From sequence record ON237674.1: a stretch of DNA of 45,041 nucleotides. One strand, given 5' to 3'. Of the stretch, positions 25 through 45,033 are shown one piece after another (positions within the stretch are counted from its first letter, which is position 1; the number at the start of each line of letters is the position of its first letter). The notes below the pieces were generated by a model. It had not been told where the DNA came from, searched no databases, and saw only the letters and a program-made list of their open reading frames with translations. A program made the position numbers and the translations under genes. This DNA is from Acinetobacter phage Arbor.

Positions 25-39
25 TTTACTATTGAGAAT
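25..39 (+). promoter_or_regulatory. Copy 1 of conserved motif TTTACTATTGAGAAT(ATAAA), 19 nt upstream of the 58..318 start
   Basis: Exact 15-mer shared with 7220..7234, 36008..36022 and 41174..41188. Followed by a strong SD (AAGAGGAG). Confidence 0.5.
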
Positions 40-7219: not shown

Positions 7220-7234
7220 TTTACTATTGAGAAT
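7220..7234 (+). promoter_or_regulatory. Copy 2 of motif TTTACTATTGAGAAT
   Basis: Exact 15-mer. Downstream AATAGT forms an inverted repeat with ACTATT. Precedes the 7283 cassette. Confidence 0.5.
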
Positions 7235-11636: not shown

Positions 11637-12644
11637 ATGACTCAACAATATTCAAGCGCTGACATTCAAGCGATTAACTTGGCATTAGGGACAAATTTCC
11701 CTCTTGATGCTCAAACAATCGCTATGGACTCTTATGTGGCTGGTGCTGCTCAGACTGCACCTAACGCTGGTATTCCAGCAATGCTCACCACATTCTTATC
11801 GCCTAAGTGGATCGAGTTTTTAACCGCTCCAATGAATGCGGCAAAGGCATTTGATGAGAAACAATTTGGTGATCGTGTTACAACGAACATCGCAATCCCT
11901 ACTTTCGAGCTTTACGGTGAAACGTCTAGTTATGGCGATTTTAACGATAACGGCATGTCAAATGACAACGAAAACTACGAATACCGTCAACCGTATGCGT
12001 ATCAAACCAATATTAAAATTGGTGAGATTGCGGAAGAGCGTGCGGCGGCGGCTCGTTTTAGTTTGGTTGAGCGCCAAATTCAAGCGACCACACTTACATT
12101 AAATAAAACGCAAAACGCTATTTATTTATATGGTGTGCAAGGTCTTAAAAACTATGGCTTGTTGAATGATCCTGATTTGTTGCCTGATTCTGTGGGCGCA
12201 AACTGGGCAATTTTAGATTCATTGGGTTTATATAATGAAGTCCTTAAGTTGTTCACTCAACTGGTAACTCAGTCTAATGGTCTTGTTCAGGAAACTGACG
12301 CAATGACTTTGGTATTGTCGCCTAAGATGAATGCACGCTTACTTGCATCTAACCAATATGGCTTGAATGCAATGAAGTACATCAAGGATAACCTACCGAA
12401 CCTTAAGATTGTTCCAATCCCTGAATACTCGACTGATGCTGGTGAGAAAGTTCAATTAGTGCTTGATTCATATATGGGTCAAGAAACGATTCACTTGGGC
12501 TTTGTTGATAAGTTGCGTACTCACAAGGTGGAAGTTAAAACTTCTGGATTCTTGCAAAAACGCTCTCAGTCAACTATCGGTGCGATCATCTACTATCCGA
12601 TGCTTGTTGCTAATATGCTTGCATCTTATGATGAAACACCCTGA
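11637..12644 (+). CDS. major capsid protein (lambda E-like / DUF2184-type)
   Basis: 335 aa. Strong SD AAGGAGAG. Gene order protease-decoration-MCP. Strong terminator downstream. Confidence 0.65.
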   Translation: MTQQYSSADIQAINLALGTNFPLDAQTIAMDSYVAGAAQTAPNAGIPAMLTTFLSPKWIEFLTAPMNAAKAFDEKQFGDRVTTNIAIPTFELYGETSSYGDFNDNGMSNDNENYEYRQPYAYQTNIKIGEIAEERAAAARFSLVERQIQATTLTLNKTQNAIYLYGVQGLKNYGLLNDPDLLPDSVGANWAILDSLGLYNEVLKLFTQLVTQSNGLVQETDAMTLVLSPKMNARLLASNQYGLNAMKYIKDNLPNLKIVPIPEYSTDAGEKVQLVLDSYMGQETIHLGFVDKLRTHKVEVKTSGFLQKRSQSTIGAIIYYPMLVANMLASYDETP

Positions 12645-18701: not shown

Positions 18702-20732
18702 ATGGCTGAAAATATTGTTGAGTCGATAATTGTAAAGCTTGGGTTAGACGGCTCACAATATAATCGTGAAGCCGAAAAAGCCAAGTCAAATAATGACAAG
18801 CTAAATAAGTCTGTCAGTGAAACTGATAAAGCTGTTAGCACTGTAACTGGTACGATTACCAGATTCTTTGGTATCTTGGCTGCTGCTACTGGCATTCTTA
18901 GAATGGTTGATCAAGTTCAAAAGCTTAATGACGAGCTTTATCATCTTGAGCGCAATCTAGGAATGTCAGCAAGCACCATTAAGAACTGGCAAGGTGCTGC
19001 TGGTGCAATGGGTGGCTCTGCTCAAGGTATGACTGAATCAATCAAATCCTTGAATATGGGAATGAATGATTTTGTCACAATGGGCGATACTACCCTGTTA
19101 CCATTCATGAATGCTTTGGGTGTCGGCATGGTCGATGCTCAGGGTAAACTAAGAAAAACCGATGATGTGATGTTAGACCTTGCGGATTCATTCTCCAAAA
19201 TGGATCGTGAGCAAGCATTCTCTATTGCCTCAAAAATGGGAATTGACGAGGGCACATTCAATACGCTTGTACAGGGGCGTAAAGAAATGGAGAAGATGAT
19301 TGAATATCAATCTAAGATGTACAGGTCCTCCGAAGAAGAATTAAAAGCATCTCGTCAATTAGCGCAAAACCGTGCATTGCTAGGTCAGCATTGGGAATCA
19401 CTTAAGACAATGATGGCAAATGCTATCATTCCGTTATTTGTGAAGCTTAGTGAAGTTGCGCTAGGAATATTTGAATATCTGCAAGAAAATCAACAAGCCG
19501 TACAAGCGGTATTCAAAGGCATATCTTTTGTAATTGGCGCTATTCTCATCCCAATTCTGGCAAAGGCTACAGTTGCGGCTTTAGCGTTTATCGCCCCATT
19601 TGCTCCATTTATTTTAGTTGTAGGTGCATTAGGTGCGGCATTTGGCTTGCTTTATGACGACTATAAAACTTGGGCAGAAGGTGGCAAATCATTATTTGAT
19701 TGGGGTGCATTCAGAAAGTACATTGATGATTCGACTTTATCTGTTGATAACTTGAAAAATGCTTTCAGCAATCTAGGCAAAGACATGCTGAATAATGCAA
19801 TACCAACGCTTAAAGGCTATGCTGAAATTCTTGATAAATTAGTATCTGGTAATTTTAAAGGTGCAGCCTTACAGGCTTGGGATATGCTTAAAAACTACTA
19901 CTCAAGAGCCGCTGATTTTGTTGATGACTTGACTGGTCAAGAACAAGGGACATTGGCTAATGCTGCTAGCAATCTTATAAATCCGAGTTCTACACCTGCG
20001 ACTAGCAATGCTCGAGTGACTTATAAATCAAAAGCATTCACACCAGAGAAAGCTGCTTCTATTGCGCGTGTGGCTAAAAATATTGGTGTTAATCCTAATG
20101 ATTTGGCTGCTGTTATTTCATTTGAGACTGGTGGAACTTTCAGCCCTAGTAAGAGAAACCCGAATTCTTCTGCAACTGGGTTAATTCAGTTCATGGCGGG
20201 ATCTGGTGGCACTAAAGGGAAATACTATGGTATGACTCGTGACCAATTTGGCTCACTGTCTTTTGATGAACAAATGAAGTATGTTGAGAAGTACTTTTTG
20301 GAGCGTAGTAGTAGATTTAGGGCTAGCAACGAGGCTAAGAATACTACTGGTGATGTGTACGGTGCTGTAACTGGCTACGGATACAAGAAAGGGTCAAGAG
20401 AGTATGAGTTAAATAAAGTATGGGATTCAAACAAGAATGGCATAATCGAAAAAGGTGAAATGGTGCAAAACCCATCATTCAGGGCGCACCAACGACAATA
20501 TTTTGATATGTCAAACTTAGCTGCTGTTCAGCAATCTACTCGTCAAGGCGACTTTATTGACTTAACTAAAGCTAGACAAAACCAAGCAATGGCAAACAAG
20601 GCTAATGAAGTCCAAGTTAATGTAGGCGACATTAATATTCAGACTTCATCTAGTACGGTTACTGGTAATGTCCAAGATGCGATGGGTGCGGTTAAAGATC
20701 AATTCTATCAATTCCGAAATTCATTTAATTAG
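18702..20732 (+). CDS. tail tape measure protein with lytic transglycosylase (SLT-like) domain
   Basis: 676 aa with an internal membrane-like helix. Motif ETGGTFSPSKRNPNSSATGLIQF typical of TMP-embedded lysozyme-like domains. Confidence 0.8.
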   Translation: MAENIVESIIVKLGLDGSQYNREAEKAKSNNDKLNKSVSETDKAVSTVTGTITRFFGILAAATGILRMVDQVQKLNDELYHLERNLGMSASTIKNWQGAAGAMGGSAQGMTESIKSLNMGMNDFVTMGDTTLLPFMNALGVGMVDAQGKLRKTDDVMLDLADSFSKMDREQAFSIASKMGIDEGTFNTLVQGRKEMEKMIEYQSKMYRSSEEELKASRQLAQNRALLGQHWESLKTMMANAIIPLFVKLSEVALGIFEYLQENQQAVQAVFKGISFVIGAILIPILAKATVAALAFIAPFAPFILVVGALGAAFGLLYDDYKTWAEGGKSLFDWGAFRKYIDDSTLSVDNLKNAFSNLGKDMLNNAIPTLKGYAEILDKLVSGNFKGAALQAWDMLKNYYSRAADFVDDLTGQEQGTLANAASNLINPSSTPATSNARVTYKSKAFTPEKAASIARVAKNIGVNPNDLAAVISFETGGTFSPSKRNPNSSATGLIQFMAGSGGTKGKYYGMTRDQFGSLSFDEQMKYVEKYFLERSSRFRASNEAKNTTGDVYGAVTGYGYKKGSREYELNKVWDSNKNGIIEKGEMVQNPSFRAHQRQYFDMSNLAAVQQSTRQGDFIDLTKARQNQAMANKANEVQVNVGDINIQTSSSTVTGNVQDAMGAVKDQFYQFRNSFN

Positions 20733-34199: not shown

Positions 34200-34291
34200 A
34201 ATGTTTACCCATTGTTTATATTCTCAATAGTAAATGAATTGAGTATTAATGTCAAGCGCAAATATTAAAAAAGCTCCCGAAGGAGCTAATT

Positions 34292-34561
34292 TTAATTCAT
34301 TAAGTTTAACAACATTCGCCTTCCAAGATAAGGCGATAATAGCGACTCAAACTCGCCAGATCTTAATTCAAACTCTTCATCATTTATTTTAACTCCATAA
34401 GCAGCACCAACTTTACAAAATTCAATTTCTTGTCCAGTTCTTGGGGATATTGAGATGCTTGAAACACCGCCAACCTTTTGAGTAGTTAGTAAAAACTCAT
34501 CTTGTGAAAAAGAATTATCAATGATTTTTGCCAACTCTAATATATTCATTTCATTCCACAC
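34292..34561 (-). CDS. hypothetical protein
   Basis: 89-aa ORF. Confidence 0.4.
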   Translation of the reverse strand: MWNEMNILELAKIIDNSFSQDEFLLTTQKVGGVSSISISPRTGQEIEFCKVGAAYGVKINDEEFELRSGEFESLLSPYLGRRMLLNLMN

Positions 34562-34615
34562 TCACTACAGTAATTATTTAAAAACAACTTGTACTTACAA
34601 CAAATCTTACAAAAC

Positions 34616-35431
34616 TCAACCACCAATAGAACCCTTCAAGAAGAATAGCGCCGTTAAAATTGCAATAACAATTAAAATAATGATTCGCTCGCGCTTGATC
34701 TTCGATTTAAGGCTATTTACATCCTCTTCAGATTGCTTGTATTGATTAACAAAGTAATCCAATTCAACTTTTGTTCGATCCAAATCAATTTTTGCACCAA
34801 TAAGATTTCCTTCTACCTCGACCAGTGTATTAATATCCTTATCATGAATTTTCTTAGCTTCATCGTTTTGTTTGATTAGTCCACTGATTGCCAAGTCTTT
34901 ACTTTCGATGATCTTTTTGAGATCCGAAATTTCTTTGTCTTTCTCGCCATCTTGGTGTTTTTGAACTGAAAGATCATTTATAGATACTGGAATATTTAAT
35001 TCAGAAGCGCATCGTGCATACTCTTTTTCCTTGCAGCGCTGCTCAAATTCCAAAAGTTCGTCAATTTCTTTAATAACTTTATTCTGAACCTTCTCGCTTT
35101 GCGGCTGGTTAAGCATCTTAGCGATATAGGGGCGAGATTTACCCATCTTTAAAGATAGTTCACTATTATTTAAACCAAGTTCTTTTTTGGCTTGGTGGAT
35201 TTTTTTGATCATATCGTTTTCTGAATATCTTTTCATAAATTCTTCAAAACTAATTTTGCGTCCAGCAGAAAAATCTGAAAACCAAAATGTCTGACCAAAA
35301 CCAACGGTAATATTCTGATCTCCCGTTGAATACGTATCATTTCGAAGCCCATGAAATCTTAATAACTTTTCCGCTTCATTTCTTTGATTTAAATCTTCAC
35401 ACATAATAGCGATATTTTCGATCTTCATCTT
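34616..35431 (-). CDS. repressor-like HTH protein with coiled coil and C-terminal transmembrane anchor (no S24 peptidase domain)
   Basis: HTH IKKIHQAKKELGLNNSELSLKMGKSRPYIAKML, a long charged coiled coil, and a C-terminal RIIILIVIAILTALFFL. SD AGGAG before MKIENIA. Divergent from the 35530 gene. Confidence 0.5.
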   Translation of the reverse strand, partial: KMKIENIAIMCEDLNQRNEAEKLLRFHGLRNDTYSTGDQNITVGFGQTFWFSDFSAGRKISFEEFMKRYSENDMIKKIHQAKKELGLNNSELSLKMGKSRPYIAKMLNQPQSEKVQNKVIKEIDELLEFEQRCKEKEYARCASELNIPVSINDLSVQKHQDGEKDKEISDLKKIIESKDLAISGLIKQNDEAKKIHDKDINTLVEVEGNLIGAKIDLDRTKVELDYFVNQYKQSEEDVNSLKSKIKRERIIILIVIAILTALFFLKGSIGG

Positions 35432-35529
35432 TGTTTCTCCTGTTAAGATAATCACTATAGTAAACTAATATTTATAATTTGCAATAGTTAATTTAATAAA
35501 CTACAATGAAGAAAAATTAGGAGTTTAAA
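35432..35529. promoter_or_regulatory. divergent promoter/operator (putative genetic switch)
   Basis: AT-rich. Palindromic 8-mer ACTATAGT (35454..35461). ATAGTAAACTA is the reverse complement of the motif core TAGTTTACTAT. AATAGTT/AAACTA repeats. Confidence 0.45.
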
Positions 35530-35955
35530 ATGAAAGTATTGAAAGTTTTTGAAGGAACAGCAGAAGTGGTTGATTTTGAATTAACTACTCGAAGCTTCTT
35601 CTATAAAGGAGAAAAGTTAAAGCACGAGCCAAATAGCAAAAAAACAGGTTTGCTAGCAAAGCGCAAAGTCTCAGATGATAATGAGCCAGAATATTTCTAC
35701 AGCCTAAATAGTGACTACGTAAAAGAAAACCACCCTAAGTTATTTACAGGGATGCGTAGTGTTGACTGGCCAAAAATTATTGATGAAGTATTTAAATACA
35801 ACAACATTTCTCAACATCAGCTTGGGAATATGACTGGGATTTCAACTGCATATATTCAGTGGTTGCGTGAAGGCGTTCGCAAAAACCCAAGTTTTGAAAT
35901 GGGAATGGCTATTATAAACCTACACCCAAACAAAAAAGAACTTTTGGAAATTTAA
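35530..35955 (+). CDS. Cro/CII-like regulator with C-terminal HTH
   Basis: C-terminal ISQHQLGNMTGISTAYIQWLREG is an XRE-type HTH. First rightward gene. Confidence 0.45.
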   Translation: MKVLKVFEGTAEVVDFELTTRSFFYKGEKLKHEPNSKKTGLLAKRKVSDDNEPEYFYSLNSDYVKENHPKLFTGMRSVDWPKIIDEVFKYNNISQHQLGNMTGISTAYIQWLREGVRKNPSFEMGMAIINLHPNKKELLEI

Positions 35956-35971
35956 TAACTTATAGCAAATC

Positions 35972-35998
35972 AACCCTCCTAGTGAGGGTTTTATTTTG
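35972..35998 (+). terminator. rho-independent terminator
   Basis: CCCTCCTAGTGAGGG hairpin followed by TTTTATTTT. Confidence 0.6.
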
Positions 35999-36007
35999 CT
36001 TATATAG

Positions 36008-36022
36008 TTTACTATTGAGAAT
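36008..36022 (+). promoter_or_regulatory. Copy 3 of motif TTTACTATTGAGAAT
   Basis: Exact 15-mer, upstream of the 36060 gene. Confidence 0.5.
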
Positions 36023-40586: not shown

Positions 40587-40853
40587 ATGAATTTAATTGA
40601 AAATTTGGGTGGTTATAAAGCTGTTAAGGCTAAATCTGAAAGCGATATTCTATACGGAGAAAAGATTTATCTTAAACGTGCGCTTTTAGAATACCGCCGA
40701 CAAAACAATATTTTTGAAATAGGCGACCTTGTTGTATTTAAGGAGGAATATAGCAAGGATAGTGTTATTCATAAGATTGACAGTTTGCGTGCAGGCACTA
40801 AGTGTTTACGTCATGCAACGGATGAAGAGATAGAGAAGGGGTGTAGAGTATGA
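40587..40853 (+). CDS. hypothetical protein
   Basis: 88 aa, coupled. Confidence 0.4.
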   Translation: MNLIENLGGYKAVKAKSESDILYGEKIYLKRALLEYRRQNNIFEIGDLVVFKEEYSKDSVIHKIDSLRAGTKCLRHATDEEIEKGCRV

Positions 40854-41140
40854 AAAATATACTAAAATCTTGGTTTAGAAAATCAGATGATGGGTTTTAT
40901 AAATTCCATAAAATGATGTGCGAATCGTTTGTTGAGCAAACATGTTTTTATGATTCAGAATATAAGACAAGGGTTGTTCTAATAAGTTCGATTTGTTGGG
41001 ATGGTGATTTTATGACTTCGAATTATGAATTTGTTGCGGTTAGTAAGGTTGGCTTGCGTCAGCGTTATTACCCAAACAGAGTTGTCTTAAATATATTTGA
41101 TGCGAGATTTCGGATTAAACCCATAATCGCATGCAAATAG
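40850..41140 (+). CDS. hypothetical protein
   Basis: 96 aa, coupled. Confidence 0.4.
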   Translation: MKNILKSWFRKSDDGFYKFHKMMCESFVEQTCFYDSEYKTRVVLISSICWDGDFMTSNYEFVAVSKVGLRQRYYPNRVVLNIFDARFRIKPIIACK

Positions 41141-41160
41141 TTCAAAAAACAGTTGCAATT

Positions 41161-41188
41161 ATTCTCAATAGTGTTTACTATTGAGAAT
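41161..41188. promoter_or_regulatory. Copy 4 of the motif, here as a perfect inverted repeat ATTCTCAATAGT-gttt-ACTATTGAGAAT
   Basis: 12-bp arms are exact reverse complements. Located 24 nt before the Imm-like gene. Confidence 0.55.
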
Positions 41189-41211
41189 ATAAATTAACAG
41201 AGAGTTTTATT

Positions 41212-41424
41212 ATGGAATTGGTTTTAGTTGTTTCAGTAATTATGTATTTAGCGCCTAGCATTATTGGTTTTATGCGTGGGCATGCAAGTAAATGGGCAAT
41301 CCTTGCAATGAATTTGTTTTTGGGTTGGTCTGTTTTGTTCTGGTTCTGGAGCTTATTCTGGTCATTATCAAATAAGGGTGGCAATCAAACAGTGATCGTA
41401 AATAATCAGATCAACAGCAAATGA
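41212..41424 (+). CDS. superinfection immunity protein (Imm-like, PF14373-type membrane protein)
   Basis: YLAPSIIGFMRGHASKWAILAMNLFLGWSVLFWFWSLFWSL matches the conserved core of T4 Imm-family proteins. Confidence 0.55.
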   Translation: MELVLVVSVIMYLAPSIIGFMRGHASKWAILAMNLFLGWSVLFWFWSLFWSLSNKGGNQTVIVNNQINSK

Positions 41425-41534
41425 GCAAAGAGTTTATGGAATTTGCAAAAGTCATGATTTTGTTTTATCTAATCGTGATTTTTGCAGTAATGGGGTTAAG
41501 TAAGTTAATTCATAATATAGTGTGGGGTGTGTGA
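41421..41534 (+). CDS. 37-aa membrane peptide
   Basis: ATGA-coupled to the Imm-like gene. Single TM helix. Confidence 0.3.
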   Translation: MSKEFMEFAKVMILFYLIVIFAVMGLSKLIHNIVWGV

Positions 41535-42301
41535 TGGAAAATTATAAAATTCGTGTAAATAATGAAGCTAGAGCAGATGAAGCAAAGGAGCTATTTAAAA
41601 AGCTTGGTTATCATCCTGATAATTCTTCATATAAGCCATATGTAGAATGGATTGCAGTTTTTGAAGATGGTAGCGGAAGTTTTTATAGCCGCAATGTGAA
41701 TTTGGATGAGTGCGTAGAAATTACTATAGCTCAACTCCGCGACCTTGTTGTGTTGAAGCGTAATGATGTGAGTGATGCTAATTACATAAGTAAAAGCGTC
41801 CTAGATGGGTTCTACTTTAAAAGCTGTGATGGGATTTTTTACTTTATGTTTGAGGGCAAGTGGGTGAGATCAACAACTAATACAGATGAAGGGCTGGAGC
41901 CTATTACTAAAGGCTCAGATTTGATTAGCGGTGCGGATGCTTTGCGAGCTTTGGCAGATGGCGCAAATCCAGAAGACATTGAAATTAGATTTTCAAACGG
42001 TTATACAACGTCATTTATCTCAACGGATGGCAAGCTTGGTTTTATTGTTAGACACTTAAATGAAAAACTGTTCCGACTTAAACCCAAAACCATCAAGCTT
42101 GAACTTGAGCTACCGAAGCCTTTTGAGCCGAAAGAAGATTGTTACGTCTACATCATTGATGACTATCAAGTTTCTGGGTATAGAAAATATTACTTTGAGG
42201 TTAAACATGATAACCAACTTGGTTCCATTGGTGCATGGCGCACTGAAGCAGAAGTAAAGCAAGTCATAGAGCAACTTAGAAAAATCAAAGGTGCTGTATG
42301 A
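41534..42301 (+). CDS. hypothetical protein (256 aa)
   Basis: ATG at 41534 overlapping the upstream stop. Consistent coding frame. Confidence 0.45.
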   Translation: MENYKIRVNNEARADEAKELFKKLGYHPDNSSYKPYVEWIAVFEDGSGSFYSRNVNLDECVEITIAQLRDLVVLKRNDVSDANYISKSVLDGFYFKSCDGIFYFMFEGKWVRSTTNTDEGLEPITKGSDLISGADALRALADGANPEDIEIRFSNGYTTSFISTDGKLGFIVRHLNEKLFRLKPKTIKLELELPKPFEPKEDCYVYIIDDYQVSGYRKYYFEVKHDNQLGSIGAWRTEAEVKQVIEQLRKIKGAV

Positions 42302-44961: not shown

Positions 44962-45000
44962 AAATTTGCTATAGTTAGTGAACTTAAGAAACTTTTTATA

Positions 45001-45033
45001 TCCGTATCTAACCCCAAGATGCGGATTTTTTTT
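45001..45033 (+). terminator. rho-independent terminator
   Basis: TCCGTATCT...AGATGCGGA hairpin followed by TTTTTTTT. Confidence 0.55.

What the first reader, a model, noticed from the sequence alone, without database searches (positions are those of the whole stretch)
41161..41534. Palindrome-controlled superinfection exclusion pair: Imm-like membrane protein plus coupled 37-aa TM peptide
The perfect inverted-repeat copy of the genome-wide motif sits immediately upstream of a T4 Imm-family-like membrane protein (core LAPSIIGFMRGH...LFLGWSVLFWFW). That gene is translationally coupled (ATGA) to a second single-TM peptide. The module is embedded in the replication operon but carries its own regulatory site. 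It is a probable lysogenic-conversion exclusion module blocking DNA injection by other phages.
Basis: partly seen in the sequence, partly recalled or inferred. Interest (0 to 1): 0.55.

Follow-up and report, generated by a model that had tools for sequence, protein, structure and literature searches.

The report
Known phage Imm gene behind promoter
This is the already annotated T4-Imm-type "superinfection immunity" gene of a virulent Acinetobacter phage, with a small conserved membrane peptide behind it and an ordinary phage promoter, not a repressor-controlled palindrome, in front.

Summary
The sequence features are real. There is a perfect 13-bp inverted repeat (41160-41172 / 41177-41189). 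A 70-aa gene (41212-41424) matches Pfam PF14373 Imm_superinfect at 48.5 bits against a cut-off of 27.9, and is 30% identical to T4 Imm over its full length. An ATGA-overlapping 37-aa single-helix ORF follows (41421-41534).

The window is an Acinetobacter Obolenskvirus, 100% identical here to phages MRABphi22 and P1068. GenBank already annotates both ORFs, and papers already note the Imm gene.

- **Palindrome:** the right arm is the -10/start-site core TACTATTGAGAAT of a promoter-like motif. It occurs five times in the genome, always in front of a gene block.
- **Left arm:** it lies in the promoter spacer. Its four central bases are the most variable positions among 21 relatives, with no compensatory changes.
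- **Promoter position:** some relatives have another gene between this promoter and imm. More distant Imm-carrying phages have neither the promoter nor the peptide.
- **Lifestyle:** the genus is described as strictly virulent and I found no integrase, so "lysogenic conversion" does not fit.

Most likely the gene is expressed during lytic infection and excludes superinfecting phages as T4 Imm does. This is inferred, not tested. The peptide is a real gene restricted to this genus, with unknown role.

The parts
41153..41158 (+). -35-like hexamer TTGCAA of the promoter in front of imm
   Evidence: It lies 17 nt upstream of TACTAT and is invariant in 21 relatives. The same spacing to TTGCAT and TTGACA is seen at two other motif copies.
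41160..41172 (+). Left arm of the perfect inverted repeat (TATTCTCAATAGT), lying in the promoter spacer
   Evidence: Its central four bases (41164-41167) are the most variable positions among relatives.
41176..41188 (+). Promoter-core motif TACTATTGAGAAT: -10-like TACTAT plus 7 conserved downstream bases. It overlaps the right palindrome arm (41177-41189).
   Evidence: There are five exact copies in the window. It is nearly invariant in relatives, with one T-to-C change in L004.
41200..41204 (+). Shine-Dalgarno-like GAGAG, 7 nt before the imm start codon
   Evidence: Read directly from the sequence. This is an inference.
41212..41424 (+). imm: a 70-aa T4-Imm-family (PF14373) protein with two hydrophobic helices
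   Evidence: The AF2 model has helices 2-21 and 25-55 at pLDDT 69. pN/pS is 0.07. GenBank annotates it 'superinfection immunity protein'.
41421..41534 (+). 37-aa single-helix membrane peptide (phrog_11840). Its start overlaps the imm stop (ATGA) and its stop overlaps the next start (TGATG).
   Evidence: It is annotated gp75 'hypothetical protein' in MRABphi22.
41534..42301 (+). Next gene of the same unit: 255 aa, phrog_7617, function unknown
   Evidence: There is no terminator between it and the peptide.
45000..45026 (+). Terminator-like hairpin followed by a T-run, the probable end of the transcription unit that starts at the imm promoter
   Evidence: In the circular genome it is followed directly by the motif copy at window 27-39.
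27..39 (+). Copy of the promoter-core motif
7222..7234 (+). Copy of the promoter-core motif, just after a hairpin-plus-T-run read by eye from the sequence
34220..34232 (-). Copy of the promoter-core motif, heading the leftward block of genes that includes RecT
36010..36022 (+). Copy of the promoter-core motif, just after the terminator at 35972-35990

Best explanation
The window is a virulent Acinetobacter myophage of the genus Obolenskvirus.

Positions 41153-41188 read as a sigma-70-type promoter: TTGCAA, a 17-nt spacer, then TACTAT followed by TGAGAAT. It is one of five near-identical promoter cores, each heading a block of genes. Here it restarts transcription in the middle of the replication arm and appears to drive a unit of about 3.8 kb, from imm to the RusA gene, ending at the terminator at 45000-45026.

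The first gene encodes a 70-aa homologue of T4 Imm with two membrane helices. By homology, it most likely inserts into the inner membrane of the infected cell during the lytic cycle and blocks genome entry by later-arriving related phages. T4 Imm does this by binding the incoming phage's tape measure protein.

The 37-aa one-helix peptide is made from the same mRNA, probably by termination-reinitiation at ATGA. It is a real gene restricted to this genus, and it may be an accessory membrane partner.

The perfect palindrome arises because the promoter spacer in this lineage carries an inverted copy of the -10/start motif. It is not a conserved operator.

**Shown:** family membership, gene reality, motif recurrence, and variability of the left arm.
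**Inferred:** promoter activity, timing of expression, the exclusion phenotype, the target, and any Imm-peptide interaction.
For: - **Identity of the window:** 100% identical to phages MRABphi22 and P1068 over 4 kb, and all 79 matching records are Acinetobacter phages.
- **Imm homology:** PF14373 at 48.5 bits against 27.9, phrog_1039 at 93 bits, and BLASTP to T4 Imm at E 4e-11 over 66 of 70 aa. T4 Imm itself scores 58 bits on PF14373.
- **Functional residues:** T4 R33 and W50, whose mutation weakens exclusion (bioRxiv 10.64898/2026.03.06.709160), align with window R22 and W39.
- **Architecture:** two hydrophobic helices joined by a short basic turn.
- **Selection:** imm has pN/pS of 0.07.
- **Candidate target:** the phage's own tape measure protein has strongly hydrophobic helices at about residues 265-320.
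- **Promoter reading:** five exact motif copies, all intergenic, 20-61 nt before an ATG. Three of the five have a TTGNNN hexamer at 17 nt, and two sit immediately after hairpin-plus-T-run terminators, one listed by the scan and one read by eye.
- **Conservation:** the core is invariant in relatives while the left arm varies.
- **Peptide:**
- **Lifestyle:** the genus is virulent with no integrase, and none was found among the large ORFs scanned here.
- **Precedent:** Imm homologues also occur in virulent N4-like and T4-like phages.
Against: - No experiment exists on any Acinetobacter Imm homologue in what I could search.
- PF14373 is very large. One sequence query found 3,287 cluster representatives. 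Many are bacterial chromosomal proteins with added C-terminal domains, so the domain does not by itself prove exclusion.
- The tape measure protein shows no sequence similarity to T4 gp29.
- The promoter matches the consensus at only 8 of 12 positions, so the simple scan did not list it.
- Natural isolates with a broken imm exist (L010, L023). The gene is therefore dispensable for growth, as it is in T4.
Confidence: 0.6

Rival explanations
1. The palindrome is an operator bound by a dimeric phage repressor. The two genes form a prophage-expressed lysogenic-conversion module that blocks DNA injection by other phages.
For: - The palindrome is perfect and statistically unusual.
- Two motif copies flank a region with a weak helix-turn-helix ORF and an antirepressor-like gene, resembling a vestigial immunity region.
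- The literature proposes temperate ancestry for this genus.
Against: - No integrase was found, and the genus is reported as strictly virulent.
- All 79 DNA matches in the phage collection are phage records. The scan of one genome per bacterial species found no close chromosomal copy; the best hit was 64% identical on 37-41 kb contigs.
- The other four motif copies are single half-sites.
- The left arm is the least conserved part of the region, and 7 of 21 relatives break two central pairs.
- Some relatives place another gene between the site and imm.
Confidence: 0.07
2. The Imm-domain protein has a membrane role other than exclusion, with or without the peptide. Examples are adjusting membrane state, lysis timing, or anchoring some other process. 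Under this view the 'immunity' label is only inherited from T4.
For: - The family has thousands of diverse members.
- Many members sit in bacterial chromosomes fused to zinc-ribbon or SHOCT-like tails, which look like general two-helix membrane anchors.
- The protein has no match in PADLOC or NCBIfam.
- Isolates with a broken imm still grow.
Against: - Similarity to T4 Imm covers the full length, including the two residues shown to matter in T4.
- The closest homologues are all in tailed phages, several of them virulent, and sit among early genes as in T4.
- Purifying selection is strong.
Confidence: 0.23
3. The inverted repeat acts as an RNA hairpin in transcripts reading through from the upstream helicase operon. 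It would serve as a 3'-end stabiliser, a processing site or a weak attenuator, separating replication-gene mRNA from the imm unit.
For: - The RNA hairpin has a predicted free energy of -16.4 kcal/mol, z = -3.96 against shuffles.
- No canonical terminator lies between gene 40850-41140 and the promoter.
- 14 of the 22 relatives' sequences read can still pair fully if G-U pairs are allowed.
- In L004 a right-arm T-to-C change sits opposite a left-arm G.
Against: - There is no U-tract after the stem.
- No double-sided compensatory change is seen, and observed pairing is no better than the column-shuffle control (93.4% against 93.3%).
- 7 of 21 relatives lose two central pairs.
- There is no Rfam match.
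- The phage's own transcript from this promoter would start inside the right arm and so could not form the hairpin.
Confidence: 0.1

Closest known systems
Bacteriophage T4 Imm (immunity to superinfection; Pfam PF14373, PHROG 1039)
   Same: - A small inner-membrane-type protein with a hydrophobic helical core and a short basic turn (RG).
- 30% identical over the whole length.
- The residues equivalent to T4 R33 and W50 are kept.
- Encoded by a virulent contractile-tailed phage, next to replication genes.
   Different: - 70 aa against 83, lacking 11 N-terminal residues of T4 Imm.
- The host is Acinetobacter.
- No Spackle-like partner was seen.
- It is followed by a coupled 37-aa membrane peptide that T4 lacks.
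- The presumed target, the tape measure protein, has no sequence similarity to T4 gp29.
- The function is untested.
'Superinfection immunity protein' genes already annotated in Obolenskvirus genomes (MRABphi22 gp74, P1068, AbP2, AP22, AB1, WCHABP1 and others)
   Same: Identical or more than 90% identical protein in the same position, with the same promoter and the same 37-aa ORF annotated as hypothetical. Papers mention it as a putative exclusion protein.
   Different: Nothing differs at the gene level. The promoter-motif reading and the variability of the left palindrome arm were not mentioned in the papers I searched.
Prophage-encoded exclusion proteins that block DNA entry (P22 SieA, HK97 gp15)
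   Same: Small inner-membrane proteins proposed to stop genome translocation. HK97 gp15 is also linked to the tape measure protein (as cited; P22 SieA).
   Different: Those are expressed from prophages, and no sequence relationship to them was tested here. This phage has no lysogeny apparatus.

Membership tests
T4 Imm / PF14373 Imm_superinfect | Profile match above the curated threshold | tested here: met
   48.5 bits against a gathering score of 27.9, covering model positions 2-42 of 42. phrog_1039 scores 93 bits.
T4 Imm / PF14373 Imm_superinfect | Direct similarity to the founding, experimentally studied member (T4 Imm) | tested here: met
   BLASTP gives 30% identity and 53% positives over 66 aa, E 4e-11. 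T4 Imm itself matches PF14373 at 58 bits.
T4 Imm / PF14373 Imm_superinfect | Small protein with a hydrophobic helical hairpin and a short basic turn | tested here: met
   Hydropathy peaks fall at residues 3-20 and 29-52, with the turn R22-G23-H24. The AF2 model has helices 2-21 and 25-55, at a modest mean pLDDT of 69.
T4 Imm / PF14373 Imm_superinfect | Residues shown to matter for T4 exclusion (R33, W50) are conserved | tested here: met
   In alignment A2, T4 R33 aligns with window R22, which is invariant in 19 sequences. T4 W50 aligns with window W39. The mutant data come from the preprint read.
T4 Imm / PF14373 Imm_superinfect | Blocks genome entry of a superinfecting phage and binds its tape measure protein | not testable with these tools
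   Only indirect evidence exists: the phage's tape measure protein has hydrophobic helices but no similarity to T4 gp29.
Lysogenic-conversion (prophage-expressed) exclusion module | Carried by a temperate phage (integrase or prophage copies) | tested here: not met
   No integrase turned up among the large ORFs scanned; 11637-12644 gave no Pfam match. The genus is reported as strictly virulent. No close chromosomal copies were found in the scan of 185,579 species genomes.
Repressor-controlled palindromic operator | Both half-sites conserved among relatives, and the dyad repeated at co-regulated sites | tested here: not met
   The left arm's central 4 nt take nine forms in 21 relatives, and 7 of these break two pairs. 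The other four motif copies lack a matching inverted partner.
Sigma-70-type promoter | -35 and -10 hexamers at 16-18 nt spacing, intergenic, upstream of a gene block | tested here: inconclusive
   TTGCAA, 17 nt, TACTAT matches only 8 of 12 consensus positions, so the consensus scan did not list it. Position, recurrence at five gene-block starts and conservation support the reading. No transcript data are available.
Intrinsic terminator | GC-rich stem followed by a U-tract | tested here: not met
   The stem is AT-rich (4 G-C pairs of 13) and is followed by TAAATTAACAG. The terminator scan did not list it.

The most novel reading that the evidence does not exclude
Imm and the 37-aa peptide could form a two-subunit inner-membrane exclusion device specific to Obolenskvirus-type tape measure proteins. 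The five promoters sharing an identical 13-20 nt core could be a regulon set by a phage factor that reads the -10/start region, with the extra inverted copy at the imm promoter giving it distinct timing. One hint of functional linkage is phage Acb75, which has both a nonsense codon in imm and a precise deletion of the peptide gene.
Probability: 0.12. Interest if true: 0.4.

Novelty: already known. Interest (0 to 1): 0.15.

Why it matters
It matters little beyond tidying the annotation. The gene is a recognised, already annotated Imm homologue in a much-sequenced group of therapeutic A. baumannii phages.

There are two practical points. If it really excludes related phages, it could affect how Obolenskviruses behave together in phage cocktails. 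And the recent finding that T4 Imm binds the tape measure protein makes a direct test in Acinetobacter easy to design.

The shared promoter core and the conserved 37-aa peptide are small, undescribed details that could be followed up cheaply.

Tried and rejected
- **Hairpin covariation:** none found. There are 0 double-sided changes, and pairing equals the shuffle control.
- **Rfam:** only two weak snoRNA chance hits below threshold.
- **PADLOC and NCBIfam:** no matches for Imm, the peptide or neighbouring genes.
- **Peptide search in the large protein database:** tblastn against phages with E up to 1 found it only in 74 Acinetobacter phage records.
- **A conserved small membrane ORF after distant Imm homologues:** looked for in metagenome contigs, phiAC-1, a Gamaleyavirus and 23 bacterial or MAG loci. 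None was found.
- **Leftward promoter in the palindrome:** only a weak 9-of-12 match, with no gene downstream on that strand. Rejected.
- **Terminator reading:** rejected because there is no U-tract.
- **Tape measure protein against T4 gp29:** no similarity.
- **Lu & Henning 1989:** not held in the library.
- **Fold search with the Imm model:** not run. A 70-aa helical hairpin at pLDDT 69 would give meaningless matches.

Full report
**What the window is.** The 4 kb around the finding is 100% identical to Acinetobacter phages MRABphi22 and P1068. It is 90-99% identical to dozens of other Acinetobacter myophages, and all 79 matching records are Acinetobacter phages. The relatives whose records I opened are classified in the genus Obolenskvirus. 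In MRABphi22 both ORFs of the finding are already annotated: gp74 'superinfection immunity protein' and gp75 'hypothetical protein'. They sit between the primosomal/DnaB genes and a run of hypothetical genes, an HNH endonuclease and RusA.

**Observation.** All the described features are present.
- A perfect 13-bp inverted repeat lies at 41160-41172 / 41177-41189 with a 4-nt loop. It is the only perfect inverted repeat of that size in the window, and none occurred in 20 shuffles.
- The 70-aa ORF at 41212-41424 contains the quoted peptide.
- The 37-aa ORF at 41421-41534 starts in the ATGA that ends imm. Its own stop overlaps the start of the next gene in TGATG.
- The 13-mer TACTATTGAGAAT occurs exactly five times (27+, 7222+, 34220-, 36010+, 41176+), plus the one-mismatch inverted copy at 41161-41173. 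This is well above chance.

**The Imm protein.**
- It matches Pfam PF14373 Imm_superinfect at 48.5 bits (cut-off 27.9) and PHROG 1039 'immunity to superinfection' at 93 bits.
- I fetched the T4 imm gene. BLASTP gives 30% identity over 66 of the 70 residues, E 4e-11. T4 Imm itself scores 58 bits on PF14373.
- Hydropathy shows two hydrophobic helices, at residues 3-20 and 29-52, around the turn R22-G23-H24. An AlphaFold2 model gives helices 2-21 and 25-55, with a modest mean pLDDT of 69 from only 8 sequences.
- Across 20 relatives pN/pS is 0.07.
- A 2026 preprint reports that T4 Imm binds the tape measure protein gp29 and so blocks genome translocation. It also reports that R33A and W50A weaken exclusion (bioRxiv 10.64898/2026.03.06.709160). 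In my alignment these residues correspond to window R22, invariant in 19 sequences, and W39.
- The window's own tape measure protein (18702-20732) has very hydrophobic helices at about residues 265-320. It shows no sequence similarity to gp29.

Family membership is therefore solid. The exclusion function and its target are inferred by homology.

**A caution on function.** A single-sequence search found 3,287 cluster representatives at E up to 0.001, many of them much longer than 70 aa. The genome scan found relatives in chromosomes of many bacterial phyla, often with zinc-ribbon or SHOCT-like C-terminal extensions. The domain is thus a widespread two-helix membrane unit, and the 'immunity' label rests on T4 alone. 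Against that, the closest relatives of this protein are all in tailed phages. They include virulent N4-like Gamaleyaviruses and T4-like Citrobacter phages.

**The 37-aa ORF.**
- It is PHROG 11840, function unknown.
- It is present with the same ATGA and TGATG overlaps in all complete Obolenskvirus loci examined.
- It shows pN/pS of 0.20. Variable sites by codon position are 7, 4 and 14, and the other two frames are full of stops. It is a real gene.
- tblastn with E up to 1 finds it only in 74 Acinetobacter phage records.
- More distant Imm-carrying phages and contigs have unrelated, non-membrane neighbours or none. This applies to phiAC-1 (63% Imm identity), a 42-kb metagenome phage, a Gamaleyavirus and 23 bacterial or MAG loci.
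- The pairing is therefore specific to this genus.
- One isolate, Acb75, has both a TAA at imm codon 51 and a precise 113-nt deletion of the peptide gene. Another has a frameshift in imm. These are anecdotes, and they show the genes are dispensable for growth.

**The palindrome and the motif.** Oriented with transcription, the five motif copies read as follows.
- TTGCAT-17-TACTATTGAGAATATAAA at position 27.
- TTGACA-17-TACTATTGAGAATATAAA at position 34232, minus strand.
- TTGCAA-17-TACTATTGAGAATATAAA at position 41176.
- Two copies with weak -35 regions sit immediately after a hairpin-plus-T-run. For 36010 the scan lists this as a terminator at 35972-35990. For 7222 I read it by eye from the sequence.

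Each copy is intergenic and lies 20-61 nt upstream of an ATG that opens a block of genes. The leftward copy heads the RecT block. I read the motif as the -10 hexamer plus start region of a promoter class. This is an inference. The hexamers match consensus at only 8 of 12 positions, so the simple scan did not list them, and there are no transcript data.

Under this reading the right arm of the palindrome is simply this promoter core, and the left arm occupies the spacer.

**Conservation of the palindrome.** I compared 21 distinct relatives, chosen for diversity.
- The -35, the -10 and the downstream core are invariant or nearly so.
- The four central bases of the left arm take nine different forms: CTCA, CTCG, CTTG, CTCT, GCGG, ATGG, GTGG, ACGG and ATAG.
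- Pair counting gives no double-sided compensatory change. Pairing is 93.4% against 93.3% in column shuffles, and 7 of 21 sequences lose two central pairs.
- The palindrome is perfect in 5 of these 21 distinct sequences, besides the nine records identical to the window over the 121-nt query.
- In Brutus, Scipio, XC1 and one IMG/VR phage, a 53-aa acidic ORF lies between the promoter and imm. In YMC-13-01-C62 and one IMG/VR phage, a 61-aa Cys-rich ORF does.
- In phiAC-1, imm overlaps the preceding gene and there is no motif copy within 1.5 kb on either side.

So the promoter is not dedicated to imm, and the dyad is not a conserved operator. As RNA the hairpin is stable, at -16.4 kcal/mol and z = -3.96. 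But it lacks a U-tract and would only exist in read-through transcripts. A role there stays possible but unsupported. Rfam has nothing.

**Extent of the unit.** No terminator follows the peptide. The next terminator-like site on the plus strand with a proper T-run is at 45000-45026. In the circular genome it directly precedes the motif copy at the window start. The 'module' is therefore the head of a longer unit, not a self-contained two-gene cassette.

**Lifestyle.** Obolenskviruses are described as strictly virulent, without integrase or excisionase, though possibly descended from temperate phages (PMC10888812). In the window, every ORF of 290 aa or more that gave a match is a terminase, portal, DUF2213, baseplate, tail fibre, tape measure, RecT or DnaB protein; one, 11637-12644, gave no Pfam match. 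No close chromosomal copy of imm turned up in one genome per species of 185,579 species. 'Lysogenic conversion' is not supported. T4 itself shows that Imm works in a lytic cycle.

**Verdict.** The gene is already annotated and discussed in the literature. The palindrome-control and lysogenic-conversion parts of the interpretation fail. This is an ordinary, known feature. The minor loose ends are the identical promoter cores, the 4-nt variable patch in the spacer, and the untested peptide.

Noticed in passing
window 27-39(+), 7222-7234(+), 34220-34232(-), 36010-36022(+), 41176-41188(+): Five promoter-like sites share an identical 13-mer, TACTATTGAGAAT, extended to the 20-mer TTTACTATTGAGAATATAAA in three of them. 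It covers the -10 hexamer and 7 bases downstream. Why the bases downstream of the -10 are identical is unexplained; a phage regulator or a start-site requirement is possible.
   Followed up: partly
L058:6470-6489(-) and L073:7029-7048(+) (IMG/VR contigs of 89 kb and 53 kb): The same 20-mer occurs once, in an intergenic setting with identical flanks, in two larger viral contigs that were not among the Imm-encoding relatives. The motif may therefore not be confined to Obolenskvirus.
   Followed up: partly
window 41164-41167: Four consecutive spacer bases take nine different tetranucleotides among 21 relatives, while the surrounding 60 nt are 94% identical. This is a sharply localised variable patch.
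   Followed up: partly
L017:594-755, L021:593-754, L024:583-744, L002:2326-2487; L007:2312-2497, L028:611-796: Some Obolenskviruses carry an extra small gene between the promoter and imm: either a 53-aa acidic, His-containing ORF or a 61-aa Cys-rich ORF. For the 53-aa insert, the ribosome-site and start sequence TTATTATGGAATT is repeated at both junctions, which suggests this slot is a recombination hot spot.
   Followed up: partly
L023 (phage VB_AB_Acb75) 591-810; L010:2501-2600: Acb75 has a TAA stop at imm codon 51 and a precise 113-nt deletion that removes the 37-aa ORF and fuses its ATG to the next gene. Another phage contig, L010, has a frameshift early in imm.
   Followed up: partly
window 34232-36010: Two oppositely oriented motif copies flank a region holding a leftward 279-aa ORF with a weak helix-turn-helix match, a divergent promoter pair at 35440-35510, and a rightward 141-aa ORF. 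An Ant-like gene lies further right, and RecT lies in the leftward block. The layout recalls a vestigial lambdoid immunity region.
   Followed up: partly
window 18702-20732: The tape measure protein has two very hydrophobic helices at about residues 265-320. Its C-terminal part matches 'lytic tail protein / baseplate hub' PHROGs and has a transglycosylase-like sequence.
   Followed up: no
L033, L034, L038, L041, L042, L045, L048, L053: Bacterial chromosomal PF14373 proteins often carry C-terminal zinc-ribbon-like (CPxC...CRFCG) or SHOCT-like tails. Helicobacter cholecystus has two tandem paralogues.
   Followed up: no
P0001: A 99% identical protein is named 'superinfection immunity protein [Escherichia coli]' by NCBI and sits on a 1.2-kb contig. 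This is probably Acinetobacter-phage sequence in an E. coli assembly.
   Followed up: no
L031 (contig CAZPYI010000001.1, 41.6 kb): A 41.6-kb contig binned as 'uncultured Streptococcus' encodes an Imm 64% identical to the window's. Its downstream gene resembles that of Acinetobacter phage phiAC-1, so it is probably a mis-binned Acinetobacter phage genome.
   Followed up: no
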